IMG/VR virus record: IMGVR_UViG_3300028198_000005
Coordinates: 1 to 55,796 of that record
DNA: 55,796 nt
Reading direction: 5' to 3' (one strand)
Source of the DNA: a virus
Taxonomy: Duplodnaviria > Caudoviricetes
In this document: positions 9,311-22,119 of the stretch, one piece after another
How positions within the stretch are numbered: position 1 is the stretch's first letter
Layout: every line of letters starts with the position of its first letter
Notes under the pieces: generated by a model
The model's input: only the letters and a program-made list of their open reading frames with translations
What the model was told of the DNA's origin: nothing
The model's database searches: none
Translations under genes and position numbers: made by a program

Positions 9311-9384
9311 TAAGTCACTGACTATCAAGGACTTAGCTCGGCGCCCCCCGCCCGCGGCGTAAGTCCTTGCGCTGCAACGACTTA
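9311..9384. repeat. double-palindrome element E1
   Basis: TAAGTC-ACTGACTATCAAG-GACTTA, 24-bp C-rich spacer, TAAGTC-CTTGCGCTGCAAC-GACTTA. Confidence 0.95.
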
Positions 9385-9464
9385 GGTACCTTTTAAAATC
9401 ATACTTTTTCGCGGATGTCAAGCCTTTTCTTAAAAAAATATCAGAAAAAACTTATCTTTTTGGG

Positions 9465-9493
9465 TTGACGCGGCGACTTTTTTACAAGATACT
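9465..9493 (+). promoter_or_regulatory. sigma70-type early promoter
   Basis: TTGACG-N17-GATACT, with ATG 10 nt downstream. Confidence 0.65.
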
Positions 9494-9503
9494 CGGGGGC
9501 GTT

Positions 9504-9746
9504 ATGACACGTTACATACACAGCAATTGCACCTACGTCCAAAACTACAACGAAGGCACCTATACATTCACCGGCCCGTGTCGGGTAACCGGCAAGCCCT
9601 ATAGTGTGACAATATTAGGGTGCGAACTTTGGGACTTAAACCAAGGCGCGTTGATACAAGACGCGCTTAAAACTGTAAGCGCAGAGGACAGGGAGTTTGT
9701 TTGCAGCGGGACAAGCCCCGAAGGATGGGAAAAATTATTTGCATAA
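9504..9746 (+). CDS. conserved small phage protein
   Basis: GALIQDAL..VSAEDREF..SG..PEGW..LF motif. Confidence 0.7.
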   Translation: MTRYIHSNCTYVQNYNEGTYTFTGPCRVTGKPYSVTILGCELWDLNQGALIQDALKTVSAEDREFVCSGTSPEGWEKLFA

Positions 9747-9761
9747 AAAACATTTTTTTGG

Positions 9762-9790
9762 TTGACTCGAATCATTGATTGAATTATACT
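9762..9790 (+). promoter_or_regulatory. sigma70-type early promoter
   Basis: TTGACT-N17-TATACT, with ATG 10 nt downstream. Confidence 0.75.
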
Positions 9791-9800
9791 TTTTGCAGTT

Positions 9801-10550
9801 ATGGAACTACTCAGCATATCATTTGAAAACGCAAAGCTCAAGGGCATTTATCACTTCTCTCTTCCGAGCGGACACACTTGCCCCGGCGCAAAAAACTGCT
9901 TAACTAAAGCGGACAGGGTAACGGGGAAGCTCACGGATCAGCAGACAGAAGTGGACGGGATTATCTTTCGCTGCTATGCAGCAGGGATGGAGAATAGGTT
10001 TCCCAAAGTAAGGGCATCGCGCTGGCGCAACTTTGATCTGTTAAAAGAAAAGAAAAGCACAGCCGAAAAAACACAGTTAATTGTGGAGAGTATAAAAGCC
10101 ACGGGCCTGAAGCGTGGCGGGACATTGCGTGTGCATATCGGCGGCGATTATTATTCCCAAAGTTATTTCAACGCATGGATGAAAGCGGCAAGCTATTTCC
10201 CAAACGTGGTTTTTTATTCCTATACTAAAAGCATTAAGTTTTTGTTGGAGTACGCCACCGCAATGGGCGGTTTGCCAAAGAACTTTGTTTTTACCTGCTC
10301 GCGCGGTGGAAAGTATGACAATTTAATTCCCTCGACGATGGTTAAAAGCGCAAAGGTTTTCTTCAACAAGGACGAGGCTGATGCACTTGGTTTAGAGATT
10401 GACCACACCGACGATCTGGCGATTTCGGGTTCTGATGATTTCGCGCTTGTGATTCACGGAGCGCAGCCAGCGGGAAGTGAAGCCAGCAAAGCCCTTTCGG
10501 CTAATAGAAAAAAAGGCTTTACAGGGTACAGCGCAACCGCTAAAATTTGA
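9801..10550 (+). CDS. Gp88-like phage protein
   Basis: FSLPSGHTCPGA..C, CYA, RVHIGGDYYS and FYSYTKS motifs. Confidence 0.7.
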   Translation: MELLSISFENAKLKGIYHFSLPSGHTCPGAKNCLTKADRVTGKLTDQQTEVDGIIFRCYAAGMENRFPKVRASRWRNFDLLKEKKSTAEKTQLIVESIKATGLKRGGTLRVHIGGDYYSQSYFNAWMKAASYFPNVVFYSYTKSIKFLLEYATAMGGLPKNFVFTCSRGGKYDNLIPSTMVKSAKVFFNKDEADALGLEIDHTDDLAISGSDDFALVIHGAQPAGSEASKALSANRKKGFTGYSATAKI

Positions 10551-10621
10551 CCCGTGGAGCATACATGGTTCTGGGTCGGAGTAACGGTGTTTTTACTGAT
10601 GGCCTTCAAAAAATTATTTGA

Positions 10622-11101
10622 ATGACGAAAGTTATAGTACAGAAAGAAGGGACGAACTGGGCAGTCGGCATAGTTGGCGACACAAAAAGAGAAGTCGAAA
10701 GAAGATATTTCTATTTTTGGAATAATAAAGCGACAGACGGCGAACTGTTTTGGTTGAAAGATGAAGCCGCGCCATTCGTGGCATATTTTTGGACTGACAA
10801 GGACAGATTGAAAGAGTCATTGAAAAATGCCAGTTTATTGGAAGCGATGCAAGCGGGGTTTGGCGATGATTTCAAAGGTAAAAAAGGTGGGCTAATGCCC
10901 TTTGCGAAAGATATAGCAGAATCAAAATTTCTAGAGATTAAAACAGAGACGTTTATAGATAGAACAAAAAGATATAACTTCTACACACTAGGGAGCATAA
11001 AAGCAGAAAACTTTTATCCCGTTCCCCGGTCTGCTTTAGATCGGACTACGATTCACAATAAAAATGAATCTAACGGGGGTATATTCAAAAAAATAAAATG
11101 A
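10622..11101 (+). CDS. hypothetical protein
   Basis: 159-aa ORF. Confidence 0.6.
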   Translation: MTKVIVQKEGTNWAVGIVGDTKREVERRYFYFWNNKATDGELFWLKDEAAPFVAYFWTDKDRLKESLKNASLLEAMQAGFGDDFKGKKGGLMPFAKDIAESKFLEIKTETFIDRTKRYNFYTLGSIKAENFYPVPRSALDRTTIHNKNESNGGIFKKIK

Positions 11102-11280
11102 TAAACGACAATCAAGAACACACACGGCAAGCGGATTCCTTTGATGATGTTTATAGTATCGACCTCGGAGCTATAAAAGAGTTTAATACGGCCTACGAAA
11201 AATGGGCAAAGAAAAACAACATTCAAAGCGGATGGCAAAAGAACAAGGGACAATTTAATTGTAAAACTGTAAAAGAATGA
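11098..11280 (+). CDS. hypothetical protein
   Basis: Coupled ORF. Confidence 0.55.
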   Translation: MINDNQEHTRQADSFDDVYSIDLGAIKEFNTAYEKWAKKNNIQSGWQKNKGQFNCKTVKE

Positions 11281-11459
11281 AACTACCAAAAATAGATTTG
11301 CTAAATACTTATGTTTTTGAAACCAATCACGGTGAGAAAATAACAATAAAAGCATATTTTAAAGAAGAGGCGATTATTGAATTCCAAGAAGATTATCAAA
11401 AAATTGGAACCAGTTATTATAAACCCACTGTTTTTGTAAAAGTGGAAAAGGTGGCCTAA
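11277..11459 (+). CDS. hypothetical protein; its stop codon is the TAA of element E2
   Basis: Coupled ORF ending in TAA at 11457-11459. Confidence 0.55.
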   Translation: MKLPKIDLLNTYVFETNHGEKITIKAYFKEEAIIEFQEDYQKIGTSYYKPTVFVKVEKVA

Positions 11460-11529
11460 GTCGTTGACTACCAAGGACTTACGGCCGCGCCCCCCCCGCG
11501 GCGCTAAGTCCTTGTGCGACAGTGACTTA
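11457..11529. repeat. double-palindrome element E2
   Basis: TAAGTC-GTTGACTACCAAG-GACTTA, 23-bp C-rich spacer, TAAGTC-CTTGTGCGACAGT-GACTTA. Confidence 0.95.
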
Positions 11530-11542
11530 CGATGGACCTTAG

Positions 11543-11833
11543 TTAAAAGCGGTTTGCTGTACTATTTCCGGCAAGGAAACTAGTAGCGACTTTCACAACC
11601 CCGTAATGAATGCCTTTTATCGCGGTGGGTTTTTTCCATTTTTCCTTTGTTGTGTCAACCGTTATCTTTCTGTCGTAATGTTTAGAGCCGTGAGTGGGGT
11701 GTTTGTGACACCCACGATTGCCAGCTCTATATACATTGAAAAGGATAACTTTTCTAAACTTTTCCTTTTTGTCTTTTTGGGAAACGAAGCGCCAAGGATA
11801 GTTGGAGAGAAGTTTAGGCTTTTGATGTTTCAT
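11543..11833 (-). CDS. possible hypothetical basic protein
   Basis: 96-aa ORF on the locally coding strand; no motif. Confidence 0.3.
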   Translation of the reverse strand: MKHQKPKLLSNYPWRFVSQKDKKEKFRKVILFNVYRAGNRGCHKHPTHGSKHYDRKITVDTTKEKWKKPTAIKGIHYGVVKVATSFLAGNSTANRF

Positions 11834-11843
11834 GATTAAATAC

Positions 11844-11867
11844 CCCCCACCCCTTGCGGGGTGGGGG
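11844..11867 (-). terminator. strong GC hairpin downstream of the DUF932-like gene
   Basis: CCCCCACCCC-TTGC-GGGGTGGGGG perfect 10-bp stem; weak U-tract. Confidence 0.5.
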
Positions 11868-11881
11868 TGTGATGTGTTCCC

Positions 11882-12790
11882 CTAGACCGTCAGCGTGGTC
11901 TCTATTTTCTCCTTGACAAGAGCTTTGGTGGTGAGCTCTCCAAAACGCTTGGCGGAGTTCTGAGCCTTGACCAAGTTCCCCAGCATCGTCTTGCTGACTC
12001 GGTTGGCGTACTCGAAGCGATCACCTTGAACCTCATGGGTCAGGTGCTGTGTGGTGGCGTTGTACAGGTTGTACAGGTTGTCACTGCGTTGCTCAAGCCT
12101 ATCCTGATTAAGGTAAGCCTCGTTTTCCCAGATGAACTGGATGGAGTCCCGCATGGATTCAGCCAGCACCTTCTTGATGGCGAGGTTGTCGAGAATCAGA
12201 ACACCTTGCTCTTTGGTGATCGTGCGCTCGCGCAGTCCCTTGAACATGGTGAGGGAGGTCTCAAACTTCTCCTTGCAAACGGCGATAGAATTGCCGATGA
12301 AGTCCAGCGTCAGCTTGGAGCTGTGCTTTTTAGTGACGCTCGTGTCGTTGACCAGAGCAGTCATCCCGTTGGTGCAGATTTGGCGTAGAAGCCCAATCGA
12401 CCATGAAACCCCGCAACTTCTATCGAATGAGTTGTTAAGGGTCAAGCGCATACCGACCGCATCACCGTTGGCGACCTTGCCAGTAACGGTAGGGAAGTCG
12501 TACACCCCATAGAAACGTGCGCCGTCACGGGCAACAAATTTCTGGCTAGTGAAACCGCTTAAACCGTTTTTGGATAAAGCGTCTTCGACTGAATCAACAA
12601 TTTTACTATTGTTGACGATCTCGTACTTCTCGGTGGAAGTACCTAAGCAGACATTGCTGTCTGTGCGAAAGTTCCCCATTACTGGAGACTTCCCGATCAT
12701 GACAGGCTTGCCGCCACGACTGAACAGAGGCTCCTGCACGACTTGGTAGTCGTACTCGGAACTTGTAGTAGGATTTTTAGGTTTTCTCAT
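11882..12790 (-). CDS. DUF932-family protein
   Basis: YEIVNN, LNNSFDRS, RQICTNGM, KKHS and NLYNLYNATT motifs. Confidence 0.75.
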   Translation of the reverse strand: MRKPKNPTTSSEYDYQVVQEPLFSRGGKPVMIGKSPVMGNFRTDSNVCLGTSTEKYEIVNNSKIVDSVEDALSKNGLSGFTSQKFVARDGARFYGVYDFPTVTGKVANGDAVGMRLTLNNSFDRSCGVSWSIGLLRQICTNGMTALVNDTSVTKKHSSKLTLDFIGNSIAVCKEKFETSLTMFKGLRERTITKEQGVLILDNLAIKKVLAESMRDSIQFIWENEAYLNQDRLEQRSDNLYNLYNATTQHLTHEVQGDRFEYANRVSKTMLGNLVKAQNSAKRFGELTTKALVKEKIETTLTV

Positions 12791-12944
12791 AACAGTTGTT
12801 TCAAGTCCTTCCTCAGGACGCACTAATCATCTCATATTTTTGGAATCAAGTCAACCCCTTTATTGTCACTTTTTTAAAAAAATTTCTTTTATAAATCCTC
12901 AACATTGGCACGGTTCTTTCCGAAAAACCCACTTTATTGAAACT

Positions 12945-13017
12945 TAAGTCGTTGCGCTACAAGGACTTACGCGCGCCGGGGGGGCGCGGACGTAAGTCCT
13001 TAAGCGTCAATGGGTTA
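12945..13017. repeat. double-palindrome element E3 (whole-inverted form)
   Basis: TAAGTC-GTTGCGCTACAAG-GACTTA, 23-bp G-rich spacer, TAAGTC-CTTAAGCGTCAAT-GGGTTA. Confidence 0.95.
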
Positions 13018-13022
13018 GGTAT

Positions 13023-13058
13023 AAAAAAAACAACCCCTCGGCGTTGGCCAAGGGGTTG
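13023..13058 (-). terminator. rho-independent terminator
   Basis: CAACCCCT/AGGGGTTG stem with a T8 run on the minus strand. Confidence 0.7.
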
Positions 13059-13111
13059 CAGTTATGAGAGAAAACGCATTCCAAGATACGAGAATGCGTT
13101 CTCAAGAGATT

Positions 13112-13351
13112 TTAGAAAAGCCTCATGCTTTTAGCAAGCTTTTTCAAAAGGCTTTCCTTGCTTTCCAAGTAGCTCTCTACCTCTTCGCTTGTTGCGAGAC
13201 GTAGACTCTTGGCTTGCACGGAACCTTCTTCGCGCTTGTGATGTTCAGTCACTACCCGTGTGTTGCTGAACTGATTGGATATAACCCTTTCGACTCTCTT
13301 CTTTGGGACGTTGAAGTAGAGTGAACCGTTTCGTATGTCTTTGGTTTTCAT
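13112..13351 (-). CDS. hypothetical protein
   Basis: 79-aa ORF with its own TTGACT...TATACT promoter. Confidence 0.65.
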   Translation of the reverse strand: MKTKDIRNGSLYFNVPKKRVERVISNQFSNTRVVTEHHKREEGSVQAKSLRLATSEEVESYLESKESLLKKLAKSMRLF

Positions 13352-13392
13352 AACCGAGATAAGTATAGATTAAACAGGAGAAGGAGTCAAGT

Positions 13393-13671
13393 CTATTCTG
13401 AAATTGCTTGGCGTATCTTTTTCATCTTACCCTTCAAAAATGAAATAGCATCACAATTTTTGGCGTTGGTCTGCATGATGTGGCTCAGACTATATTCTAT
13501 TTTGCGCGTAAAGTCTTTGCGTAACGCATCCAACTTATCTGCATCTGCTCGCTTTATTGCGCGAGTCTTCTTGGCCGCTTTCTTCTTGTCAGCCTTCTTT
13601 ATTAAATGTTTAGTCTTCACTTTTTTTTCTCCGAATGCCTCTAGTAACTTGTCGTAATTGCTTACCTTCAT
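13393..13671 (-). CDS. Lys-rich hypothetical protein
   Basis: ATG at 13671 (MKVSNY). Confidence 0.6.
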   Translation of the reverse strand: MKVSNYDKLLEAFGEKKVKTKHLIKKADKKKAAKKTRAIKRADADKLDALRKDFTRKIEYSLSHIMQTNAKNCDAISFLKGKMKKIRQAISE

Positions 13672-13682
13672 ATTAAATAAAA

Positions 13683-14203
13683 TGGTGGCGGGAGTATTTG
13701 TGTACCCGCACCTTTTCAGTCCCCAGAAAACAAATGTTTCAGATCGACTTACTTCGGACTCACCCACGATTTTCCTCTGCCACTAGGCCGTTGTACTTCT
13801 CGCAGTCGCTACGTTACCCCTTTGGGAGGGGTTATTCCGTCACACCGAACTCTCTCCGTCGAGAGAGAAATTGATTTGAATGGCGGTCAATCAAGGGAGA
13901 AATCTCAGCCACCGGCTCCAACCCCAGTAAGCTCAGCAAAGCCCCGCTGCATCTTAATAGCAATCTGCACCATTCAAAATTAAATGAGTTGTTACCGCGC
14001 CACCAGTAAATGCACAGGTAAGTCCTGCTCCAGCGTAAGATGTCTTACCATCCCTGTCCCTAGCGCGTTTATAGCTTAAGGGCGACGGAGGCGTATTTAA
14101 ATCACCAACTCAAATTCAAAGAACAATTAAAAAGTGTCAGGGGTGATTAGCATTGCGTTCCCGCCCTAATCTTTTTTTGTTAAGTCAGCCCTGCCTGACT
14201 CGC
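13683..14203 (-). ncRNA. cluster of about four putative structured non-coding RNAs
   Basis: ORF-poor, more GC-rich 520 bp made of units each closed by terminal complementary ends; upstream TTGACA-N17-TAGACT promoter. Confidence 0.5.
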
Positions 14204-14240
14204 ATTTTATGAAAGCTCCCCTAAGGGAAAGTATAGTCTA

Positions 14241-14516
14241 TCAGCTTTCTGTTTCGCTGTCAACCTGAAAATCATCCTTTGAAGGAATTTGATTCTCTTT
14301 TAGACTCTTGCGAATGTACTCCAAAGCTACGCGCTGCTTCGCAACGGTAAGTTTGATTTGATTCAAGCTCAAGTCGTTAGCCTCTTCCAAGAAACCGAGA
14401 GCATCACCTACCATGCGAATCTCTTTAACAGCTTCGCGCTGGTTGCTGCTTCTGCGTTCGATTTCGTCTCTCCCCGCTTTAGTGCGGGCCTGTAACCAAT
14501 GTAATGGGATATCCAT
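14241..14516 (-). CDS. hypothetical protein
   Basis: 91-aa ORF, GTTATG start behind a promoter. Confidence 0.6.
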   Translation of the reverse strand: MDIPLHWLQARTKAGRDEIERRSSNQREAVKEIRMVGDALGFLEEANDLSLNQIKLTVAKQRVALEYIRKSLKENQIPSKDDFQVDSETES

Positions 14517-14529
14517 AACTTTTTATATA

Positions 14530-15123
14530 TTACTTTGTTTCTGCTTGAAGGTCAAGCAAATTTTTCATCTTATCCTTTGGGGTATAGAAAATATTGTAGT
14601 GCGGCCCGATAGCGGTCTTGTCTCGGATGATCACCCTGTCAGACTTGTGAATGGGTGTTTTCTCTACATCATCAACAAAAGTCTCATGTTTATAGGGGTT
14701 GTAATACCCTCCGCGAAAATCTTCGCTCGACTCTGGGACGCATTGCTCGCAGTAGTCGTATGGTTTGTCGCTACAGTCACAGATACTGTACTTTTCGTAT
14801 AACTCATTATCAACCTCGCGAAAGCGTTCCTTGGAAACGTCACCAATCTCATGACATTTTCCGACAATATAAGCGTGAACATTCTTACGCTTTTCCCGAA
14901 GGACTCGCTGCCGACCTGCTGGCTGAACCCGAAACTTGGCATCATGCAATTCGACACGGTGAGCATGGCAGTATAACAGTCCCGTCTCAGCATCGATCAC
15001 CGACAGGCAATCCAAGTTCAGATTAAAATAAACCTTCACACGATCCGGTGCGACTTCGATGCCGTCTACCATCTTGCGTGGCCCTGCATCCTTCCAACTA
15101 ATGAATCCTTTTCTTTCCCTCAT
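14530..15123 (-). CDS. conserved phage hypothetical protein
   Basis: VYFNL...GRQRVLREKRKNVHAY...YNPYK..TFVD motif, with a Cys-rich insertion. Confidence 0.7.
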   Translation of the reverse strand: MRERKGFISWKDAGPRKMVDGIEVAPDRVKVYFNLNLDCLSVIDAETGLLYCHAHRVELHDAKFRVQPAGRQRVLREKRKNVHAYIVGKCHEIGDVSKERFREVDNELYEKYSICDCSDKPYDYCEQCVPESSEDFRGGYYNPYKHETFVDDVEKTPIHKSDRVIIRDKTAIGPHYNIFYTPKDKMKNLLDLQAETK

Positions 15124-15192
15124 AACTTCAAATAGTATAATTCAGTTCTTCTTGAATGTCAACGATTAATTTCAACTTTTTTAAAATTAAAT

Positions 15193-15266: not shown

Positions 15267-15416
15267 AGCACAAGAAAATAGTCTCATGCTTTCGGAAACT
15301 TGTCAACAGAAAAAAATAAGAAATAAGAAATCATTAAATAGGAAATAGGAAACGGTTAAATACTAAATAGAGGGACGTTTTATAAATATATTTTTGGAAA
15401 AATTTTATAATTTACC

Positions 15417-15489
15417 TAAGTCACTGATTACCAAGGACTTACGCGCGCCCCCTCCCCCCCGGCCTAAGTCCTTGTAGCGCAACGACTTA
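15417..15489. repeat. double-palindrome element E4
   Basis: TAAGTC-ACTGATTACCAAG-GACTTA, 23-bp C-rich spacer, TAAGTC-CTTGTAGCGCAAC-GACTTA. Confidence 0.95.
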
Positions 15490-15553
15490 CGACTTTAAAA
15501 AGACACAAAAAAAACTCACGCTTTTTAGCGTGAGTGATGAGGGTTGGCACGGT

Positions 15554-16077: not shown

Positions 16078-16368
16078 TTACCAATCGCAGCATCCACCGT
16101 AATCCTCGTCGGTGCCAAAACCAGCGCTCGCGAGCGCGTCCCCGTCCGCTTCTGCGTCTGAGCGGAAACCGTCCCACGGCTCATCCGTGGCATCATCGAT
16201 AGACCACACCACGACACGAGTGCCGTCCGCGAGATGCTCGACGACATCCTCGCCCGCACGTTGGGCCAAATCGATGGCATCATTCAGCGCACTGTGATCC
16301 GCGTCGCCCATGTTCTGCGTGAAACTCCGCACGACACCCTCTTCGTCAACAACTGAGTACTTCCTCAT
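16078..16368 (-). CDS. highly acidic small phage protein
   Basis: DADGDALASAGFGTDEDYG-type C-terminus; TTGACA-N17-TATACT promoter. Confidence 0.7.
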   Translation of the reverse strand: MRKYSVVDEEGVVRSFTQNMGDADHSALNDAIDLAQRAGEDVVEHLADGTRVVVWSIDDATDEPWDGFRSDAEADGDALASAGFGTDEDYGGCCDW

Positions 16369-16495
16369 AACGCAAAACAGTATACCAGAAACCGGCGAGA
16401 TGTCAACCAATAATCTCACTTTTTTTCTTTTTTTTTCTTATGATTTTTGGCACGGTTGGCACGGAAACCCTTCTTAAAACGCTTTTCTGGAAACT

Positions 16496-16568
16496 TAAGT
16501 CACTGAGTATCAGGGACTTACGCGCGCGGGGGGGCCGCGGCCGTAAGTCCTTGTGGCTTAACGACTTA
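16496..16568. repeat. double-palindrome element E5 (spacer-flipped form)
   Basis: TAAGTC-ACTGAGTATCAGG-GACTTA, 23-bp G-rich spacer, TAAGTC-CTTGTGGCTTAAC-GACTTA. Confidence 0.95.
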
Positions 16569-16701
16569 CGACGTGGTTCCTTAGCATGTTGCGTGCCAAG
16601 TCAGGGGCTTTTATCTTGTGTCGCGATTACAGTAATCGCCAGCATTATTAAAAACGCAATGGTCGATATTAAAACAGTTGGGTCAGGGACTAAGTGGAGA
16701 A

Positions 16702-16890
16702 TCATTTGTAATTTGTAAAGTTGAAGTTGAAGGTTTTCTTTTCTTTCGCCGTCAATTTCAATTCTGTATTTTCAGCTTTAGCAATTACAGTTTCCCTTAA
16801 TTTTTTTCTCCTTCGCGCGTCACCTTCGCAAGCTGCGCGATCGTTTAAACTTAAGCCGCTCCAAATTTCGATTGAATTTTGTTTTTCCAT
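16702..16890 (-). CDS. hypothetical protein
   Basis: 62-aa ORF in a minus-strand run. Confidence 0.5.
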   Translation of the reverse strand: MEKQNSIEIWSGLSLNDRAACEGDARRRKKLRETVIAKAENTELKLTAKEKKTFNFNFTNYK

Positions 16891-16893
16891 AAT

Positions 16894-17130
16894 TTATCTT
16901 TTCCTTTTCTTTTGTCGGTTGGTGGCTTTTGTTTTATTTGATCCGGCTGGTCTTTCAAAAACTGTATGGACATTATTGCGACATCCGTCTTTACGGCCAT
17001 TGGAATCTGTTCCTTGGCTGCCCCAACTCCTTTTACCGCCGCTAGAACTATACAACATTTCTTGGTGGGCTTCTAGTCCTCCTAGCGGCATATGTCCGAG
17101 ATCGCCCATGTGTCGTTTTTCGTTTTTCAT
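16894..17130 (-). CDS. hypothetical protein
   Basis: Coupled to the upstream ORF. Confidence 0.5.
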   Translation of the reverse strand: MKNEKRHMGDLGHMPLGGLEAHQEMLYSSSGGKRSWGSQGTDSNGRKDGCRNNVHTVFERPAGSNKTKATNRQKKRKR

Positions 17131-17390
17131 GCGCGCCCTCCGTGTATGGCTTGCGCCATGTTAATAAGGTTGACGGCCTTGACCATACGATCCCAGCGGA
17201 AACGTCGAGTCTGGCCGGTTGGGCCTTGGTTGTCGTGGATCTCGACCGTTACCCCAGAAAAGGTTTCCCCCTCGGTAGTGTTGCGGAAGTGGTCAACGAT
17301 TACCCCAAGGTAGTTGTAAACGTGGTTGCCGTGATTTACCTCGCCCTCGTGGCGAGCCGGTTGATATTCGAACTTGTACATGTCTCTCAT
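17127..17390 (-). CDS. small protein, possible WYL/SH3-like fold
   Basis: C-terminal TRRFRWDRM; own promoter. Confidence 0.55.
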   Translation of the reverse strand: MRDMYKFEYQPARHEGEVNHGNHVYNYLGVIVDHFRNTTEGETFSGVTVEIHDNQGPTGQTRRFRWDRMVKAVNLINMAQAIHGGRA

Positions 17391-17432
17391 AACTTCAAAA
17401 AGTATAACTGATTTTTCCTTAAACGTCAACCC
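17384..17432 (-). promoter_or_regulatory. early promoter/start cassette, identical copy at 20688-20736
   Basis: GGGTTGACG-N17-TATACTTTTTGAAGTTATGAGAG, 49 bp exact duplicate. Confidence 0.85.
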
Positions 17433-17659
17433 CTAATTTGATATTTTAACCGTGGCAGCCAAGATTCTTTTTTCCATTCTAAAGCGAGCCGGTGGTTTTC
17501 CTTATTCTTTTTCCATCTCGCGATCCGAAGATCCAGCTTGAAAGCCGCGTAAAGCACTTTCTTAATCAAAAACACCTGCAACCTTACGGCCACGGCTAGC
17601 GGATGCAGAATCTTTTCAGCAATCGCAAAAACCGTTCCTTTTTCATTTTCATTTTTCAT
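17426..17659 (-). CDS. hypothetical protein
   Basis: ATG 17659 after an AGTGAG-NNN-CTCACT leader hairpin. Confidence 0.5.
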   Translation of the reverse strand: MKNENEKGTVFAIAEKILHPLAVAVRLQVFLIKKVLYAAFKLDLRIARWKKNKENHRLALEWKKESWLPRLKYQIRG

Positions 17660-17718
17660 TTTTTCAGTTTTTAGTGAGCCTCTCACTTCCTTAATCATGA
17701 AGCAATCAGGCAAAAAGG

Positions 17719-18120
17719 TCAACCCTTAAAATTAACTTTTTTAACTTTTGATTGGTCTTGCTTGTTTTTAGCTTCCCAATTAGCTATCCTTAAGCGCATC
17801 CTGTGGTTCGTCTGAAGCATTCGCATTGCAGTATTCCAACCGTGTTTCATTCCGTCAAGTAGAGCTTTTTGCTCAAGTCCATCTACTTCTCTGGTGTGCG
17901 CTTGGACACCACTTGCGGCCTTTCTGATCTTGAACCATTCTGATTTGATCAAGTCCGCTTCCGCTTGTTTGAAAATCTCCAACGGCCGCGGCTGTTTCCA
18001 TGTTTTGGCGAGTTCGGCATCCTTCAGGTCATTGGCTTCAGCGGCTTGTTTGTCAGCAGCAGCCATGTCCATTTTGGCGATCCAATTTTCATTCTTGTCT
18101 TTATTTTTCATTTTTTTCAT
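17719..18120 (-). CDS. hypothetical helical protein
   Basis: ATG 18120 after TTGACC-N17-CAGAAT and a leader hairpin. Confidence 0.6.
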   Translation of the reverse strand: MKKMKNKDKNENWIAKMDMAAADKQAAEANDLKDAELAKTWKQPRPLEIFKQAEADLIKSEWFKIRKAASGVQAHTREVDGLEQKALLDGMKHGWNTAMRMLQTNHRMRLRIANWEAKNKQDQSKVKKVNFKG

Positions 18121-18189
18121 TTCAGTGAGTCTCTCACTTCCCTTATTCTGAAGCAACCAGAGAAAAAGGTCAACCCTTAAATTTAATTT

Positions 18190-18432
18190 TTATCCGCAAG
18201 TCGGAAACAAGCGGCCCCTGTTCAATTGATCGCCGCCCCAACCGAAGGCGATTTCCTGACCGTCTCTCTCGATGATCCAAGGCCACATATTCCCATCCAA
18301 AACCTGCGCCATTTCGCAAGCGGCATCAAATGCAGAGTGGTCTTTGCCTCGTTCGTTCGTGAACTTTTTGCTGCCCACGCGGTTGGTGTCTTCGTCTCTC
18401 CAACTTAACTCGTATGTGATCTTGTCTCTCAT
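18190..18432 (-). CDS. hypothetical protein
   Basis: 80-aa ORF with its own promoter. Confidence 0.65.
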   Translation of the reverse strand: MRDKITYELSWRDEDTNRVGSKKFTNERGKDHSAFDAACEMAQVLDGNMWPWIIERDGQEIAFGWGGDQLNRGRLFPTCG

Positions 18433-18479
18433 AACTTCAAAAATTATCGTTTATTTCGCCTTAAAAGTCAACACTTATT

Positions 18480-18701
18480 TTAAAGTATATTTGGCATACG
18501 CCGCCGCGTTACTACTATCTCGGCCGCTTTCCCGATCCTCTTAAGATTAGCCTCACGCTTGAACTGCTCCCAAGTGGGGCGATCGCTTTCGGCGGTCGTC
18601 ATGTCTAGTTGCAGAGCTTTCCACTCTTTCATGTCGGCCCTTCGGAGTGCTTGAACGCGTAGGGCAAGTTGCTTGAATTGGTTGTCTGTCATGTCTCTCA
18701 T
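18480..18701 (-). CDS. hypothetical protein
   Basis: MRDMTD start behind TTGCAA-N17-GACAAT. Confidence 0.55.
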   Translation of the reverse strand: MRDMTDNQFKQLALRVQALRRADMKEWKALQLDMTTAESDRPTWEQFKREANLKRIGKAAEIVVTRRRMPNIL

Positions 18702-18744
18702 AACTGGGTTTATTGTCTCAAAAAACTGATAAGGTTGCAAGCTT

Positions 18745-18936
18745 TTATTCGCACTCGCGGCATTGGAACCAGTCGGTATCAGTCCATTGGCTGGCCTCTT
18801 CATGGCTAATGTGAAGCTCTTCATTGCATCCGCAGCAGGATACCAGTACTTTTTCGTTAGCCTTTTTGACTGCCTCTCGGCGGTTCCGGAGGTTGAAGTG
18901 TCGGCGAATTTCGGTCATTGTCATTGTGTTTTTCAT
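18745..18936 (-). CDS. Zn-finger protein, paralog of 23937-24101
   Basis: VLVSCCGCNEEL...DWFQCRECE. Confidence 0.65.
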   Translation of the reverse strand: MKNTMTMTEIRRHFNLRNRREAVKKANEKVLVSCCGCNEELHISHEEASQWTDTDWFQCRECE

Positions 18937-19101
18937 GTTGTTCTTAATCTCTCTCACTGAAAAAAGTATAGCAGAATCCGAGAAAAAGTCAACCAATAAT
19001 CTCACTTTTTTTCATTTTATTAAAGAAAGTTTTTTTTGTAATCGGGAGGGGTTGGCACGGTTCTACTTTGAAAAACGTTATTTTTTACCTTTTAAGAGTC
19101 G

Positions 19102-19174
19102 TAAGTCGTTGAAGCTTAAGGACTTACGCGCGGGGGGAGGGGGCGGCCGTAAGTCCTTGGTACTCAATGGGTTA
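19102..19174. repeat. double-palindrome element E6 (whole-inverted form)
   Basis: TAAGTC-GTTGAAGCTTAAG-GACTTA, 23-bp G-rich spacer, TAAGTC-CTTGGTACTCAAT-GGGTTA. Confidence 0.95.
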
Positions 19175-19254
19175 GGGTATAGAAAACGCCCCGCCGAGAA
19201 GAAATGAAGAAAGACCCGACGGGGCGCGCTGTTAGTTATGAGGTAACAGAAAAA

Positions 19255-19404
19255 CTATAATTTATTAAAAGTCTTTTTTAGTTTACGGCTTACTTTCAAC
19301 CGGCGCTGAACAGTATCATTGATTTCTTGTTCTGTCAATTCTTCTTTTTCGAAGTTTGGGTCTTTGCCTCTATACGGTTTAGTGTGACGGTATTCTTGTT
19401 TCAT
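19255..19404 (-). CDS. hypothetical protein (49 aa)
   Basis: MKQEYRHTKPYRGKDPNFEKEE..., read manually. Confidence 0.45.
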   Translation of the reverse strand: MKQEYRHTKPYRGKDPNFEKEELTEQEINDTVQRRLKVSRKLKKTFNKL

Positions 19405-19407
19405 AGT

Positions 19408-19737
19408 TTATAAGTACTCTTTTCTGTCTGGTTCTACATTTTTTTTGTAGTGGTCAAAGAATTTTTTTCTAGCTTGTTTCCTTAACTCTTTAAAGTATCC
19501 ATCAAAGCTCATTGAGACTTCCCACTTAGAATCCTCGCTCCAAGGCATCCCCTGTATGTCATCAACAACAATATTAACGATTTCTTCTATTGGCTTGCCC
19601 CATAGATTGCTCTCGTCTTTTACTAGAAACGATCTAGGACTGCACATCGATAACTGGCCTTCCTCTTTTTGGTTGTCCCACTTATCGCTAGCTTCTTCCC
19701 AAATTTCCTCCAAGCCTTTTTCTATTGTAGAGTTCAT
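19408..19737 (-). CDS. hypothetical protein
   Basis: 109-aa ORF. Confidence 0.6.
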   Translation of the reverse strand: MNSTIEKGLEEIWEEASDKWDNQKEEGQLSMCSPRSFLVKDESNLWGKPIEEIVNIVVDDIQGMPWSEDSKWEVSMSFDGYFKELRKQARKKFFDHYKKNVEPDRKEYL

Positions 19738-19746
19738 TATAGTTTA

Positions 19747-20208
19747 TTATAGTTTATAGAAAGCGTGTTGACCTATAACTTTGACAGGCTTTTCGCCTTT
19801 GGCCCAGTATGGTTTTTTCTTCATCCATGTGGCATGGTAGTGATTAGCAAAGCCAACGTAGTCGCGGCTTAAAAGTTTGATATTCTTTGCCAACCCCAGC
19901 GCGTACTTACCTTGCGGAACCTTCAGCAGATGTTCTAGGTCTTTTAATTGCTTACCGTTCCAGCAACTAAACTGATAGGGTTTGAGACAGATTTCGGTTG
20001 GTGTTCTCTTTCTCTCGAATGCACGTTGAGCAATGACAGCAGCCACCGCGTACATTCCCTTTTCCCCTTCTCCCCTTGCTTCGGCAAGGATAGTGATCGC
20101 AATTATTTTCGTTTCACGGGTGAATTTTGCGTTGTTATGCGTGTGCGCATAAACAGAACAAAAGATGATAGGTAGGGCTAGTAGTGTTATTATTTTTTTC
20201 ATTTTCAA
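19747..20208 (-). CDS. SleB-like cell wall hydrolase (Hydrolase_2) with signal peptide
   Basis: AEARGEGEKGMYAVA, QFSCWN, ANHYHA, PYWA and IGQHAFY motifs. Confidence 0.88.
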   Translation of the reverse strand: MKMKKIITLLALPIIFCSVYAHTHNNAKFTRETKIIAITILAEARGEGEKGMYAVAAVIAQRAFERKRTPTEICLKPYQFSCWNGKQLKDLEHLLKVPQGKYALGLAKNIKLLSRDYVGFANHYHATWMKKKPYWAKGEKPVKVIGQHAFYKL

Positions 20209-20366
20209 TATCCGTTATATGTTGTGGTTGTGCCGTACTTTTTGCGCTTGGCATCAGCGGCCTTCCTCATTGTATCATGGTAAGAGCCTTCGCTCCAGTC
20301 TGATTTTGGATAATGTCTCCAAATGTTCATTGCCGTTATTTCTTCTTTTATTATTGGTTTTTTCAT
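20205..20366 (-). CDS. hypothetical protein
   Basis: MKKPIIKEE start; coupled to the hydrolase gene. Confidence 0.45.
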   Translation of the reverse strand: MKKPIIKEEITAMNIWRHYPKSDWSEGSYHDTMRKAADAKRKKYGTTTTYNGY

Positions 20367-20370
20367 GGGT

Positions 20371-20694
20371 CTACCGATTCCGTTTTCTTTCAAGACATCT
20401 GAGGACTTTTGCTTCGGCGAGTTCATCCTCGCCAGCGATACTCCGCTCATCAATGCCGCGCTCGCGTAAACTTTTGGTTACAGACTCGTCAGATAACCAT
20501 TCAAGATCTTCGCTATGTTCGATCTCTCGGAGGGTGTCGCTGATAGTTTCGAGCCTTTGCTTGAGTTGGCCTAGTCGGAGCTGGATATGTGCCTTGTCAA
20601 CTAGGTTGGTTTGTGCAAGTATATCGACCATACCGGTGATATCCTCAATCTTGCTCGCTTCGTTTCTGATGTGTTTTTGTGTTTCAACTCTCAT
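20371..20694 (-). CDS. hypothetical coiled-coil protein
   Basis: Start lies within the duplicated promoter cassette. Confidence 0.6.
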   Translation of the reverse strand: MRVETQKHIRNEASKIEDITGMVDILAQTNLVDKAHIQLRLGQLKQRLETISDTLREIEHSEDLEWLSDESVTKSLRERGIDERSIAGEDELAEAKVLRCLERKRNR

Positions 20695-20722
20695 AACTTC
20701 AAAAAGTATAACTGATTTTTCC

Positions 20723-21037
20723 TTAAACGTCAACCCTTAAATCTAATTTTTTCAACTCTTCATTAGTCTCCGCTATTCGCTTTTGGAGGCTGTCCTTCTC
20801 GGTTTGCAGCCTTATCCTTGCGGCTTCCGAATCTGAAGTGTTGGCGAAATAATTAACGATTGTCTCGACGATAACGGTCATCGATACACCCAATCGACTG
20901 GACAGATCTTCGAGCTGCTGTTTTGTCTCCACTTTCAGCCGATAAGTAGCCATTACTCTATCGGGGATTTCTGGACTTTTCCCAACTTGGACGTTCGTTC
21001 GTTCAGCGACTGGGATTCTTTTGATTTTGGTATTCAT
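20723..21037 (-). CDS. ribbon-helix-helix (CopG/Arc-like) DNA-binding protein
   Basis: ATYRLKVETKQQLEDLSSRLGVSMTVIVETIV followed by a coiled coil. Confidence 0.65.
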   Translation of the reverse strand: MNTKIKRIPVAERTNVQVGKSPEIPDRVMATYRLKVETKQQLEDLSSRLGVSMTVIVETIVNYFANTSDSEAARIRLQTEKDSLQKRIAETNEELKKLDLRVDV

Positions 21038-21113
21038 TGTTATTTTTTTTTGCTTTAGTGAGTCTCTCACTTCCCCTAGTATGAAGCAACCAGAGAAAAA
21101 GTCAACCCCTTTA

Positions 21114-21635
21114 TTATCTTTTTGGCCGTCTCCCGTTGTCCCTATATTTGGGGCCGCGTGGGCCTTTGTATGGTTTTGGGGGTTGTGTGGGCCGTTTGCT
21201 CCAGTGAACGACGATCTCGGAAGGGTCGTAGCACTCGTTCGCGAGAACCTCGCCCAAGGTTACTTTGGCTTGGTGGTCGTCGGATAGGTGATGACGATGG
21301 CCTTCCGTCCCTTCGGGGAAGTACTCAAGGAATGACCACGCTATGCCGTCATCTAGTTTGCCGCAAGTGTCGTGGTTTAGGTAAACGTCCTGACCGTTCT
21401 CTGCCGCAAAAGCAATGGCATCAGCAAAACCGATTCTGTTTGCGGGCCAAGCCCATGTGCCGCAGTCGTAAACCGCGTAATGCGCGCCGAGTGGGACGCC
21501 GATCATCCATGCGTGACCCGAATGGTGGGAATCGGGCGGCGATGCGTATTTGCCCGATTTACACATAGGGCAACCCCTGCTGTGCTTTTCCATTGTCTCT
21601 TCGCTGTGGTCTATGTTGTCGTGTATTTCGCTCAT
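21114..21635 (-). CDS. hypothetical protein (Cys/His-rich)
   Basis: 173-aa ORF with its own promoter. Confidence 0.6.
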   Translation of the reverse strand: MSEIHDNIDHSEETMEKHSRGCPMCKSGKYASPPDSHHSGHAWMIGVPLGAHYAVYDCGTWAWPANRIGFADAIAFAAENGQDVYLNHDTCGKLDDGIAWSFLEYFPEGTEGHRHHLSDDHQAKVTLGEVLANECYDPSEIVVHWSKRPTQPPKPYKGPRGPKYRDNGRRPKR

Positions 21636-21692
21636 AACTTCAAAAAGTATAGTTTATTCGATGGTGGAAGTCAACCCTTAAAAGTCACTTTT

Positions 21693-21908
21693 TTACCATT
21701 TCACCACTCGGAACCATTCTCCGCGTACTCGCCTATTTAATGGCGTGTAGCTTGTCCACTCGTCCTGACTGATCTCTTTGACCGTTTGGACTCCGTCAAC
21801 CCAAGGCCCTTTGACCTTGACCATCTTCGGGCGACTGGCTTCAACCAACTCACGGGCGAATAACTCTTCATTTTCGAAGACCTCTTCTAGTTCGATTCTA
21901 TCCCTCAT
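21693..21908 (-). CDS. hypothetical protein
   Basis: MRDRIE start behind TTGACT...TATACT. Confidence 0.6.
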   Translation of the reverse strand: MRDRIELEEVFENEELFARELVEASRPKMVKVKGPWVDGVQTVKEISQDEWTSYTPLNRRVRGEWFRVVKW

Positions 21909-22046
21909 AACAGAAAACAGTATATCACAATCGCCGAAAAAGTCAACTTAAAAAGTCACTTTATTTCACTTTTTTTATTTTTATTTTTTGCTGTATTTGG
22001 CACCAGTTGGCACGCGTCCTGCACAAAAGTGTGATGTTTTAAAACC

Positions 22047-22119
22047 TAAGTTGTTGATTACCAAAGACTTACGCGCGCGGGGGGGCCGCGGCCGTAAGTC
22101 CTTGCGGCACAGTGACTTA
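22047..22119. repeat. double-palindrome element E7 (spacer-flipped form)
   Basis: TAAGTT-GTTGATTACCAAA-GACTTA, spacer identical to E5, TAAGTC-CTTGCGGCACAGT-GACTTA. Confidence 0.95.

What the first reader, a model, noticed from the sequence alone, without database searches (positions are those of the whole stretch)
9311..22119. Seven dispersed 73-bp double-palindrome elements partition the early region into gene cassettes
Seen: E1 9311, E2 11457, E3 12945, E4 15417, E5 16496, E6 19102, E7 22047. Each is TAAGTCnTTG-N5-CAAnGACTTA, a near-pure G/C spacer of 23 bp (24 in E1), then a second such palindrome. Geometry is fixed (25+23+25) while the N5 centres vary. The inner arms (CAAGGACTTA...TAAGTCCTTG) are the best conserved. 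All copies lie at gene boundaries, 1.1-2.9 kb apart, and none occurs outside 9.3-22.1 kb. E3, E6 and E7 sit between the promoter of one minus-strand block and the terminator hairpin of the next; E2 supplies the stop codon of its upstream gene. Inference: tetrameric protein-binding or recombination sites delimiting exchangeable cassettes (integron/shufflon-like). Alternatives are cruciform signals for DNA injection, replication priming or genome organisation. No recombinase is encoded in the window. I do not recognise this element as a described family.
Basis: partly seen in the sequence, partly recalled or inferred. Interest (0 to 1): 0.92.

Follow-up and report, generated by a model that had tools for sequence, protein, structure and literature searches.

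The report
Phased double bend-site elements upstream of phage promoters
Seven 73-bp repeats in the early region of an uncultured marine phage look like paired protein-binding (IHF-type DNA-bending) sites set at helically phased distances upstream of strong early promoters, and belong to a large, apparently undescribed family of such elements in marine phages.

Summary
There are 14 half-palindromes in 7 pairs at the stated coordinates, against 0.03 expected, and none elsewhere.

The arms are not hairpins. On 146 dyads, 83.1% of cells pair, against 83.7±0.5% in shuffles, with almost no compensatory changes. They therefore read as double-stranded protein half-sites.

The symmetrised half-site is W-A-T-C-A-A-n-G-A-C-T-T-A. 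It fits the IHF consensus WATCAANNNNTTR at every specified position, with AA/TT steps 9 bp apart.

Six of the seven elements lie 80-110 bp upstream of a sigma70-like -35. Across relatives this distance has a 10.3-bp period. That period and its phase were replicated on 325 new elements from 119 other viral loci.

Gene modules between elements are permuted and inverted among relatives. However:
- no recombinase is present, even in a 90%-complete relative;
- none of the 15 listed natural variant junctions lies inside an element.

Best reading: a promoter-coupled architectural or regulatory module. The binding protein is unidentified. The integron/shufflon model is not supported.

The parts
9311..9384 (+). 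E1: double dyad with a 24-bp G/C spacer. Its sense orientation is + ; it lies 80 bp upstream of the -35 TTGACG at 9465.
11457..11529 (.). E2: double dyad at the convergent junction of the + and - units. No promoter was found within 200 bp on either side. Its first TAA is the stop codon of ORF 11277..11459.
12945..13017 (-). E3: double dyad lying 2-3 bp after the T-run of terminator 13059-13030 and 90 bp upstream of the -35 at 12854.
15417..15489 (-). E4: double dyad after terminator 15535-15514. It lies 110 bp upstream of a TTGACA...GACTAT promoter (about 15306-15278) that precedes tRNA-Cys (15266-15193).
16496..16568 (-). E5: double dyad 89 bp upstream of the -35 at 16406 (TTGACA-16-TATACT). 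A sigma54-like motif (16598-16583) ends 14 bp before it.
19102..19174 (-). E6: double dyad 109 bp upstream of the -35 at 18992 (TTGACT-16-TATACT).
22047..22119 (-). E7: double dyad downstream of terminator 22227-22206 and 100 bp upstream of the -35 at 21946. Sigma54-like motifs at 22150-22135 (-) and 22008-22023 (+) point into it from both sides.
9465..9493 (+). Sigma70-like promoter downstream of E1 (TTGACG-17-GATACT).
12826..12854 (-). Sigma70-like promoter downstream of E3 (TTGACT-17-GATGAT), ahead of the DUF932 gene 11882..12823.
16379..16406 (-). Sigma70-like promoter downstream of E5.
18965..18992 (-). Sigma70-like promoter downstream of E6.
21919..21946 (-). Sigma70-like promoter downstream of E7.
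13030..13059 (-). Intrinsic-terminator-like hairpin directly upstream (in the sense direction) of E3.
15514..15535 (-). Intrinsic-terminator-like hairpin upstream of E4.
22206..22227 (-). Intrinsic-terminator-like hairpin upstream of E7.
12905..12912 (-). CGTGCCAA motif between E3 and its promoter. Copies stand in the same relation to E5 (16447, 16456), E6 (19052) and E7 (22007).

Best explanation
Each 73-bp element is a promoter-coupled, protein-bound architectural module that acts on double-stranded DNA.

Its two 25-bp dyads are independent binding sites. The half-site consensus, read from the dyad centre outwards, is W-A-T-C-A-A-n-G-A-C-T-T-A. This is a symmetrised form of the IHF consensus WATCAANNNNTTR, with the AA/TT intercalation steps 9 bp apart.

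The inferred mechanism is as follows. An IHF/HU-type bending protein, most likely from the host, or an unidentified phage protein with similar geometry, makes two sharp bends on either side of a stiff G/C spacer. The module sits just after the terminator of one early unit. It lies a whole number of helical turns (18 + 10.3n bp) upstream of the -35 of the next sigma70-type early promoter. The folded upstream DNA therefore faces RNA polymerase from a fixed side. From there it could boost or gate the promoter, or insulate it from the unit upstream.

Because the copies are quasi-palindromic repeats at unit boundaries, they also coincide with places where early gene modules have been permuted and inverted during evolution.

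Shown here: duplex-site behaviour, the match to the consensus, placement, phasing, the size of the family, and concerted evolution of the spacers. Inferred: the identity of the binding protein, the bending, and the direction of the effect on transcription.
For: 1. No structure signal. On 146 dyads (138 distinct), 83.1% of cells pair, against 83.7±0.5% in shuffles (456 of 500 shuffles are at least as high). The covariation score is 0.107 against 0.113. On the 126 dyads of the first set, position 4/22 reads GC 79, CC 21, GG 12, CG 1, and position 6/20 reads CG 85, GG 20, GC 0. Arms within one element are no more complementary than arms of different elements.

2. The half-site logo equals the IHF consensus at all 9 specified positions in two sets. 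The three central positions were left free in the search pattern, yet read W 0.78-0.80, A 0.73-0.75 and T 0.48-0.56. The outermost base is R in 99% of cases. At least one perfect WATCAANNNNTTR half occurs in 60 of 126 dyads and in 270 of 545 dyads. The consensus, its start near the site centre and the 9-bp AA spacing were read in passages of PMC1874591.

3. In sense orientation, E1 and E3-E7 align as one composite unit ending in TTGAC and a -10.

4. Phasing. In the discovery set the best period over 7-14 bp is 10.3 bp (n=30, R=0.71, 0 of 5000 random sets as high). This is stable over score thresholds 14-19. It also holds with distinct distances only, on a hand-compiled list (n=23, R=0.59, p about 8e-4). 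In the independent set, 105 of 325 elements have a one-sided promoter. There the best period is 10.3 bp, R=0.31, p about 5e-4, and the phase is 8.0 against 7.7.

5. The same dyad occurs in viral contigs that share no detectable protein with the window, and in other architectural contexts. Eight copies lie upstream of terminase genes, and others lie beside a TTATCCACA box.

6. No phage HU/IHF gene was found, which fits a host factor.

7. Sigma54-type promoter motifs, which classically work with IHF, flank elements in several relatives.
Against: - Canonical IHF sites are asymmetric, with an A-tract in the other half. These sites are symmetric.
- The n-G-A-C positions inside the consensus N4 are conserved (0.8-0.9), which the IHF consensus does not explain.
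- In the window itself only 2 of 28 half-sites match the full 13-mer, and one dyad of each element has a G/C-type centre.
- A close relative (L136) carries a different inverted repeat around a G/C core at the same terminator-to-promoter position. That argues for a lineage-specific binding protein.
- Dyad-to-dyad spacing is constant within a genome but ranges from 36 to 63 bp across the family.
- Only about a third of elements in the wide set have a recognisable one-sided promoter within 160 bp, and phasing there is weaker (R=0.31).
- The strand bias of the C-run (22 against 5) was not replicated (37 against 56).
- E2 has no promoter nearby.
- Elements in related phages are not independent samples.
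- The IHF match was found after the fact. I estimate it roughly as a 1-in-10 to 1-in-20 coincidence once the number of known motifs tried is allowed for. This is my own estimate, not a computed value.
Confidence: 0.5

Rival explanations
1. The dyads are operators for a dedicated phage-encoded regulator, not IHF/HU. This could be a dimer-of-dimers that shuts off or activates early promoters, and it co-evolves with its sites.
For: - Extra conserved GAC positions and full dyad symmetry.
- Spacing and spacer sequence are constant within a genome and specific to each lineage. Spacer similarity is 0.49 within genomes against 0.07 between them.
- The close relative L136 has different arms with the same architecture and position.
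- The helical phasing fits this reading equally well.
Against: - No recognisable DNA-binding regulator was found among 34 window ORFs scanned against Pfam. The only DNA-binding domain found is the winged helix of a RuvB-like ATPase.
- The same dyad is present in contigs that share no detectable protein with the window. Those contigs are fragments.
- The match to the IHF consensus would then be a coincidence.
Confidence: 0.22
2. The main role is evolutionary. The quasi-palindromic repeats serve as homologous-recombination substrates that permute, invert or exchange early gene modules, like PeSL regulatory cassettes.
For: - Module order and orientation differ among 7 relatives. Adjacencies across double elements are conserved in 39 of 112 comparisons, against 97 of 161 within modules.
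- Spacers evolve in concert within genomes, which needs exchange or conversion between copies.
- A RuvB-like gene lies next to the region in all the relatives compared.
- PeSL is a precedent (abstracts of PMC2839356 and PMC4122927).
Against: - None of the 15 listed junctions in 4 laid runs has an end inside an element. The nearest is 37 bp away with a 24-letter side. Several junctions lie between promoter repeats D7 and D1.
- Unit boundaries tolerate breakpoints whether or not an element is present.
- Conservation of half-sites, with free centres and free spacers, points to selection for binding rather than for homology.
- The phasing to promoters is left unexplained.
- Assemblies break at E5 and E7, so junctions there could be hidden.
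Confidence: 0.13
3. The elements are enhancer-like upstream activating sites for a bacterial enhancer-binding protein that drives sigma54-type promoters.
For: - TGGCACG-N4-xTGC motifs number 37, against 0 for the reversed control, in 13 sources.
- In L150, 23 of these motifs flank the elements: one or two end about 15 bp before an element and one starts about 62 bp after it.
- The window has 6 such motifs against 0.42 expected. Three of them point into E5 or E7.
Against: - Only 14 of 74 elements and 8 of 325 elements have such a motif within 150 bp.
- In the window the downstream promoters are sigma70-type.
- Many motifs point into the element from 12-16 bp, which is too close for looping.
- No enhancer-binding protein or sigma54 gene was found in the records searched. 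The only hit is generic AAA+ similarity in the RuvB-like gene.
Confidence: 0.06
4. The elements are site-specific recombination sites that delimit exchangeable cassettes, integron- or shufflon-like.
For: - The 10-N5-10 dyads resemble recombinase core sites.
- Two dyads per element recall the two simple sites of attC (recalled from memory).
- Modules are reshuffled among relatives.
Against: - No Tyr or Ser recombinase or Y1 transposase in the 90%-complete 144-kb relative; no Tyr recombinase or Y1 transposase in the window.
- No pairing between arms, which attC needs.
- Modules carry their own promoters.
- No junction lies inside an element.
Confidence: 0.03
5. The elements act as folded nucleic acid (cruciform, RNA three-hairpin or terminator), or are selfish MITE/BIME-like repeats.
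For: - Palindromic form and intergenic position.
- Paired inverted units resemble BIMEs (start of the abstract of PMC2817692, seen in the listing).
- Single copies of the palindrome act as terminator-like hairpins after tRNA genes in some bacterial genomes.
Against: - No excess pairing and almost no compensatory changes.
- Self-complementarity of the spacer is barely above shuffles: 4.46 against 4.21±0.11.
- No Rfam match.
- No T-run after the elements.
- Conservation is concentrated in the arms, not spread evenly as in recent transposon copies.
- No Y1 transposase.
- The elements are confined to one 11-13-kb region in the window, G011 and G012.
Confidence: 0.04

Closest known systems
IHF binding sites upstream of phage early promoters (Mu Pe; lambda pL recalled from memory)
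   Same: - A sequence that matches WATCAA...TTR, with AA steps 9 bp apart.
- Placement upstream of a strong early sigma70 promoter.
- Passages of PMC3820752 state that IHF has a specific site on Mu that affects Pe transcription. Passages of PMC1874591 give the site anatomy.
   Different: - Here the site is symmetrised, with the consensus in both halves.
- It is doubled around a G/C-only spacer.
- It is repeated 7 times in one region and hundreds of times across a phage group.
- It carries extra conserved GAC positions.
- Binding by IHF is untested.
PeSL (promoter-early stem-loop) regulatory cassettes of T4-type phages
   Same: - Short repeated regulatory modules at the boundaries of small early genes in plastic regions.
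- They combine a terminator with a strong sigma70-like promoter.
- They are associated with modular shuffling (abstracts of PMC2839356 and PMC4122927).
   Different: - A PeSL is only promoter plus stem-loop. Here a separate 73-bp double dyad lies between terminator and promoter and shows no stem-loop signal.
- The natural junctions seen here lie in promoter repeats, not in the element.
- The phage has no detectable relation to T4. Its large terminase is at most about 25% identical to any cultured phage.
E. coli BIME / RIB-RIP elements (REP palindromes with an IHF site)
   Same: A composite extragenic repeat, at the ends of transcription units, that combines palindromes with an IHF site. REP, BIME and IHF recruitment were read in the starts of the abstracts of PMC2817692 and PMC3479197 in the listing. 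The RIB/RIP layout is recalled from memory.
   Different: - The layout is inverted: in RIB/RIP, G/C-rich REP hairpins flank one IHF site; here two IHF-like dyads flank a G/C core.
- These are phage elements, not host ones.
- Seven copies, not more than 100.
- No RAYT-type transposase.
- No stem covariation.
Integron attC sites
   Same: Two pairs of inverted core sites with 5-bp centres around a variable middle, located at gene-module boundaries (recalled from memory).
   Different: - No integrase.
- No pairing between distal arms.
- Modules have their own promoters and lie in both orientations.

Membership tests
IHF binding site | WATCAA starting near the site centre, with TTR four bp further on | tested here: met
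   The symmetrised logo is W-A-T-C-A-A-n-G-A-C-T-T-A in 126 and in 545 dyads. A perfect 13-mer occurs in at least one half of 60 of 126 and 270 of 545 dyads. The definition was read in PMC1874591. In the window only 2 of 28 halves are perfect.
IHF binding site | Two AA (TT) steps 9 bp apart at the centre, where the prolines intercalate | tested here: met
   TT at dyad positions 8-9 and AA at 17-18 are nearly invariant.
IHF binding site | A-tract in the 5' half, giving an asymmetric site | tested here: not met
   The other half carries a second copy of the consensus instead.
IHF binding site | Bound and sharply bent by IHF | not testable with these tools
   This needs EMSA, footprinting or bending assays. 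No HU/IHF gene scores above the family cut-off in the window or in G011.
PeSL regulatory cassette | Composite of a strong sigma70-like early promoter and a terminator stem-loop | tested here: inconclusive
   The intergenic units contain both. The 73-bp element itself is neither, and it shows no stem signal.
PeSL regulatory cassette | Recombination between copies creates indels and shuffles ORFs | tested here: inconclusive
   Modules are shuffled among relatives. Contig junctions lie between promoter repeats, such as 17716 to 18169 and 20720 to 21631. None of the 15 listed junctions lies inside an element.
Integron (attC with IntI) | Tyrosine recombinase IntI encoded by the element | tested here: not met
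   PF00589 gives 0 matches in the window and 0 in G011 (90% complete) and G012.
Integron (attC with IntI) | attC folds by pairing of its distal and proximal arms | tested here: not met
   Inner-inner and outer-outer arm identity is not above the between-element control.
Shufflon / invertase systems | Dedicated Tyr or Ser recombinase | tested here: not met
   PF00589 and PF00239 are absent from G011 and G012. PF00589 is absent from the window. PF00239 was not searched in the window.
REP/BIME | Stem-loop repeats, high copy number in a bacterial genome, associated RAYT (Y1) transposase | tested here: not met
   There is no stem covariation. The window has 7 copies, confined to one region. PF01797 is absent from the window, G011 and G012. 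Five bacterial genomes hold 1-7 copies of the single palindrome.
Rfam RNA families | Match to a curated covariance model | tested here: not met
   A cmscan of 9000-23000 at E up to 1 gives no hit on any element.
Sigma54 enhancer (UAS) | A -24/-12 promoter within looping distance, plus an enhancer-binding protein | tested here: inconclusive
   Motifs flank elements in L150 and at E5 and E7. They occur near only 14 of 74 and 8 of 325 elements. No enhancer-binding protein or sigma54 gene was found.

The most novel reading that the evidence does not exclude
A large, undescribed class of phage cis-elements. Each is a portable 'fold-back' cassette made of two symmetric IHF-type U-turn sites clamped by a G/C spacer. 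The cassette would shape upstream DNA in three dimensions to control early promoters from a fixed helical face. In some lineages it is wired to sigma54-type promoters, which would mean that marine phages recruit the host's enhancer/IHF machinery for early transcription. The same quasi-palindromic cassettes would allow early gene modules to be inverted and permuted without a dedicated recombinase.
Probability: 0.2. Interest if true: 0.8.

Novelty: new variant of a known kind. Interest (0 to 1): 0.66.

Why it matters
If the reading is right, a widespread group of uncultured marine phages organises its early transcription with a standard architectural part. The window's own early region (bases 12500-22400) was held, at half or more of its sampled words, by 14 marine or seawater runs, one of which may be its source sample.

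That part is a double bend-site placed in helical register with each unit's promoter. This would give:
- a testable rule for annotating promoters and transcription units in viral dark matter;
- a hint about the host (a bacterium with IHF and probably RpoN);
- a compact natural part for synthetic promoter insulation or boosting.

It also bears on how phage early regions stay modular. Boundaries marked by quasi-palindromic repeats can be permuted or inverted without a recombinase.

I found no description of the family. There was no Rfam match and no match of one element, E5 with 10-bp flanks (16486-16578), in 50,697 cultured-phage records. Nothing relevant appeared in the literature searches.

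Tried and rejected
- **Hairpin, cruciform or RNA motif.** Rejected by arm-identity tests, per-position pair counts and the formal pair count, and by the lack of an Rfam hit.
- **Conserved mismatch at arm position 7.** All 14 window dyads are mismatched there, but across 126 dyads 28 are Watson-Crick, against 25% expected. The position is simply free.
- **Spacer hairpin.** The best stem averages 4.46, against 4.21±0.11 in shuffles, which is at most weak.
- **C-run on the sense strand.** 22 against 5 in close relatives, but 37 against 56 in the wide set. Dropped as a general property.
- **Host REP.** Most hits are single hairpins after tRNA genes, followed by T-runs, in spirochaete and planctomycete assemblies. 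Copy numbers are 1-7 per genome in 5 genomes. I take these as ordinary terminators.
- **Cultured relatives.** There was no megablast hit for 9000-23000. No phage-database hit was found for E5. The terminase is at most about 25% identical to any record.
- **Second protein query.** The query 21114-21635 found no viral relatives.
- **Phage-encoded HU/IHF.** Only sub-threshold hits. The 71-aa ORF 5894..6109 has an HU-like N-terminal helix and then what looks to me like a membrane helix, so it is not an HU.
- **Enhancer-binding protein or sigma54 genes.** None were found. The PF00158 hit is generic AAA+ similarity in the RuvB-like gene.
- **Read laying.** All four runs were contigs, so no molecule ends or strand could be read. 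Contigs break inside E5 and E7, which share a 39-nt identical stretch. Absence of junctions there proves little. The fall in RNA-contig cover after E2 (bin 11506-12006) and at E7 is not evidence.

Full report
**1. The observation**

A search for TAAGTCNTTGNNNNNCAANGACTTA with up to 3 mismatches finds 14 sites in the window, against 0.03 expected. An alignment shows the fixed 25+23+25 layout (24 in E1), near-pure G/C spacers and the best-conserved inner arms.

The window is a complete IMG/VR record of 55,796 bp that CheckV rates 38% complete. It is a fragment of a phage, carrying a large terminase, a tail fibre and a baseplate-like protein. It has no close cultured relative: megablast gave no hit, and the terminase is at most about 25% identical to any record.

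The region 11.5-25.4 kb is a minus-strand block of small ORFs with many strong sigma70-like promoters (TTGACx-17-TATACT). The scan found 48 such sites against 25 expected.

**2. The arms are duplex half-sites, not stems**

A protein query with the endolysin-like early gene gave 19 related loci (L135-L153). Most of them carry the same double dyads. A 5.7-kb contig (L042) shares early proteins at 43-82% identity.

I collected 63 distinct double elements from 13 sources and ran three tests.
- Arms within an element are no more complementary than arms taken from different elements of the same genome.
- Variable stem positions show mismatches, not compensation. Position 4/22 reads GC 79, CC 21, GG 12, CG 1. 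Position 6/20 reads CG 85, GG 20, GC 0.
- The formal count on 146 dyads gives 83.1% paired cells, against 83.7±0.5% in column shuffles.

Palindromy therefore arises because each arm independently keeps a consensus. That is the signature of a symmetric protein site on double-stranded DNA. No Rfam family matches.

**3. The half-site matches the IHF consensus**

The symmetrised logo, read from the dyad centre outwards, is W-A-T-C-A-A-n-G-A-C-T-T-A. The IHF consensus is WATCAANNNNTTR. WATCAA starts near the site centre, TTR lies four bp further on, and two AA steps lie nine bp apart where the prolines intercalate (passages of PMC1874591; the term occurs in 24 papers).

All nine specified positions agree. 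The TT and AA steps of the dyad (positions 8-9 and 17-18) are nine bp apart. The outermost base varies only between A and G.

The three central positions were free in my search pattern. They still read W, A, T in a second, independent set of 545 dyads.

At least one perfect 13-mer half occurs in 60 of 126 and 270 of 545 dyads. In the window itself only 2 of 28 halves are perfect.

Points against a plain IHF site:
- the full symmetry of the dyad;
- the conserved GAC inside N4;
- the G/C-type centre of one dyad in each window element.

No HU/IHF gene is present in the window or in a 90%-complete relative.

**4. Coupling to promoters**

Turned into the sense orientation, E1 (+) and E3-E7 (-) align as one composite unit: element, about 100 bp of A/T-rich DNA, then TTGAC and a -10. 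E4's promoter drives tRNA-Cys. The gaps from the element end to the -35 are 80, 90, 110, 89, 109 and 100 bp.

Across relatives the gaps run from 17 to 134 bp, but in steps.
- With a fixed scoring rule (score at least 16, promoter on one side only; 30 of 63 elements), the best period over 7-14 bp is 10.3 bp. R is 0.71, and 0 of 5000 random sets reach it.
- The result is stable for score thresholds 14-19, on 74 elements.
- It holds with distinct distances only, on a hand-compiled list (n=23, R=0.59).

These hold 886 dyads and 325 new double elements. Of the 325, 105 have a one-sided promoter. For these the best period is again 10.3 bp (R=0.31, p about 5e-4), with the same phase (8.0 against 7.7 bp).

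The elements thus sit on a fixed helical face relative to the promoter. This argues for a role in transcription through a bound protein or a defined bend.

Caveats:
- related phages are not independent samples;
- two thirds of the wide-set elements lack a promoter that my matrix recognises;
- the strand bias of the C-run (22 against 5) was not replicated (37 against 56).

**5. The cassette and recombination idea**

Families of shared early genes show that the modules between elements occur in different orders and orientations in seven relatives. For example, the GP88-like module, the DUF932 module and the L5-gp82-like module are permuted. Adjacencies across a double element are conserved in 39 of 112 comparisons. 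Within modules the figure is 97 of 161, and across single dyads it is 8 of 25.

Spacers are much more alike within a genome than between genomes (0.49 against 0.07, permutation p about 5e-4). This means concerted evolution among the copies.

Against a dedicated mechanism:
- No tyrosine or serine recombinase and no Y1 transposase were found in the 144-kb, 90%-complete relative G011. All 14 of its half-sites lie within 131.9-143.2 kb.
- The window lacks a tyrosine recombinase and a Y1 transposase. I did not search the window for serine recombinases.
- In contigs of three DNA runs and one RNA run laid on 8500-23500, 15 junctions were listed and 9 more were not shown. None ends inside an element.
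- Several junctions join copies of promoter-associated repeats: 17716 to 18169, 17694 to 21095, 21041 to 17658 and 20720 to 21631. This is PeSL-like behaviour of the promoters, not of the 73-mers.

Assemblies break inside E5 and E7, so junctions there could be hidden.

**6. Other contexts and variants**

The same dyad occurs in viral contigs that share no detectable protein with the window.
- In G003, eight copies lie in 570 bp just upstream of gpA-type terminase genes.
- In a second group of contigs it lies beside a TTATCCACA box.
- L069 carries pairs of dyads whose starts are 42 bp apart (a 17-bp spacer), and shares no detectable protein with the window.

These are settings where architectural proteins usually act.

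A close relative, L136, has a different inverted repeat around a G/C core at the same place between terminator and promoter: TTGACRTCTAACG, about 21 G/C-rich bp, then CGTTAGAWGTCAA. By my own hand count from the printed sequence, its gaps to the -35 are 34, 44, 44, 46 and 53 bp. This favours a lineage-specific binding protein.

Sigma54-type motifs (TGGCACG-N4-xTGC) number 37, against 0 for a reversed control, in 13 sources. Of these, 23 flank elements in L150 and 6 are in the window. Only 14 of 74 and 8 of 325 elements have one within 150 bp.

**7. Verdict**

The elements are real. They are part of a large family that I could not find described, and they are best read as promoter-coupled double protein-binding (bend) sites. 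I give about 0.5 to that reading with an IHF-type binding protein as written, and about 0.2 more to a phage-specific regulator acting in the same way.

The integron/shufflon reading is not supported. A passive role as boundaries where modules get reshuffled remains plausible.

Supplementary files of the papers cited were not seen.

Noticed in passing
window 16598-16583 (-), 22150-22135 (-), 24228-24213 (-), 15545-15560 (+), 22008-22023 (+), 25883-25898 (+); L150 7420-19827: Sigma54-type promoter motifs (TGGCACG-N4-xTGC). The window has 6 against 0.42 expected. Thirteen sources have 37 against 0 for a reversed control. L150 has 23, many of them perfect TGGCACGCTTCCTGCT. The motif at 25883 lies just upstream of the first plus-strand gene (25913). 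One literature search listed no paper on sigma54 promoters in phage genomes.
   Followed up: partly
window 12905, 15544, 16447, 16456, 16592, 19052, 22007, 24222, 25882: The 8-mer CGTGCCAA occurs 9 times against 0.93 expected. It is about 8-fold enriched within 120 bp of elements in relatives (21 of 63 elements). It overlaps the -24 half of the sigma54-like motif, but often lacks a -12 half.
   Followed up: partly
window 8029-9006 (+): The gene next to E1, labelled a clamp loader by PHROGs, is a full-length RuvB homologue. Its RuvB_C domain scores 43.7 bits, and it aligns to solved RuvB chains over residues 23-316 (E 3.5e-8). It flanks the element region in all seven relatives compared.
   Followed up: partly
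window 13678-13866 (-): A match to the manA RNA motif (RF01745) at 43.3 bits, E 1.7e-8. This is below the gathering score of 55.2 but covers the whole model. Metagenome contigs show small indels next to it (13867 to 13976 or 13983).
   Followed up: no
L136 7899-7945, 9109-9155, 10765-10811, 11715-11761, 14230-14276, 15277-15323: A close relative without the TAAGTC dyads has a different 47-bp element (a 13-bp inverted repeat around a G/C-rich core) at the same position between terminator and promoter. L139 and L140 show a third variant.
   Followed up: partly
L010 (G003) 4303-4871; L005, L006, L009: The same 25-bp dyad occurs in contigs that share no detectable protein with the window. Eight copies lie directly upstream of small and large (gpA-type) terminase genes. 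In another group, three dyads lie beside a DnaA-box-like TTATCCACA.
   Followed up: partly
window 15111-15195, 17378-17462, 18420-18504, 20682-20766, 21623-21707, 23291-23375: A repeated promoter and 5' region in which the -10 (TATACT or TATAAT) lies only about 12 nt before the ATG of ...GAAGTTATGAGAG. This suggests very short leaders or leaderless early mRNAs.
   Followed up: no
window 9068-9211 and 15314-15369; L136 16367-16524: A/T-rich short-period repeats (AAATAAGRAAT-like; 15-bp period in L136) beside E1 and E4. Metagenome variants carry a 22-bp insertion at 15326.
   Followed up: no
window 17635-17739, 18086-18190, 21019-21123: Metagenome and metatranscriptome contigs join these 105-nt repeats to each other, giving deletions of 452 and 3400 bp and a reordering. 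This shows natural cassette loss and gain at promoter-region repeats.
   Followed up: partly
L015-L134 (bacterial genome contigs): The perfect palindrome TAAGTCCTT-N7-AAGGACTTA often stands a few bases after tRNA genes and before a T-run in spirochaete (many from termite gut) and planctomycete assemblies. These look like ordinary terminators. Whether the recurrence of this stem sequence exceeds chance was not tested.
   Followed up: no
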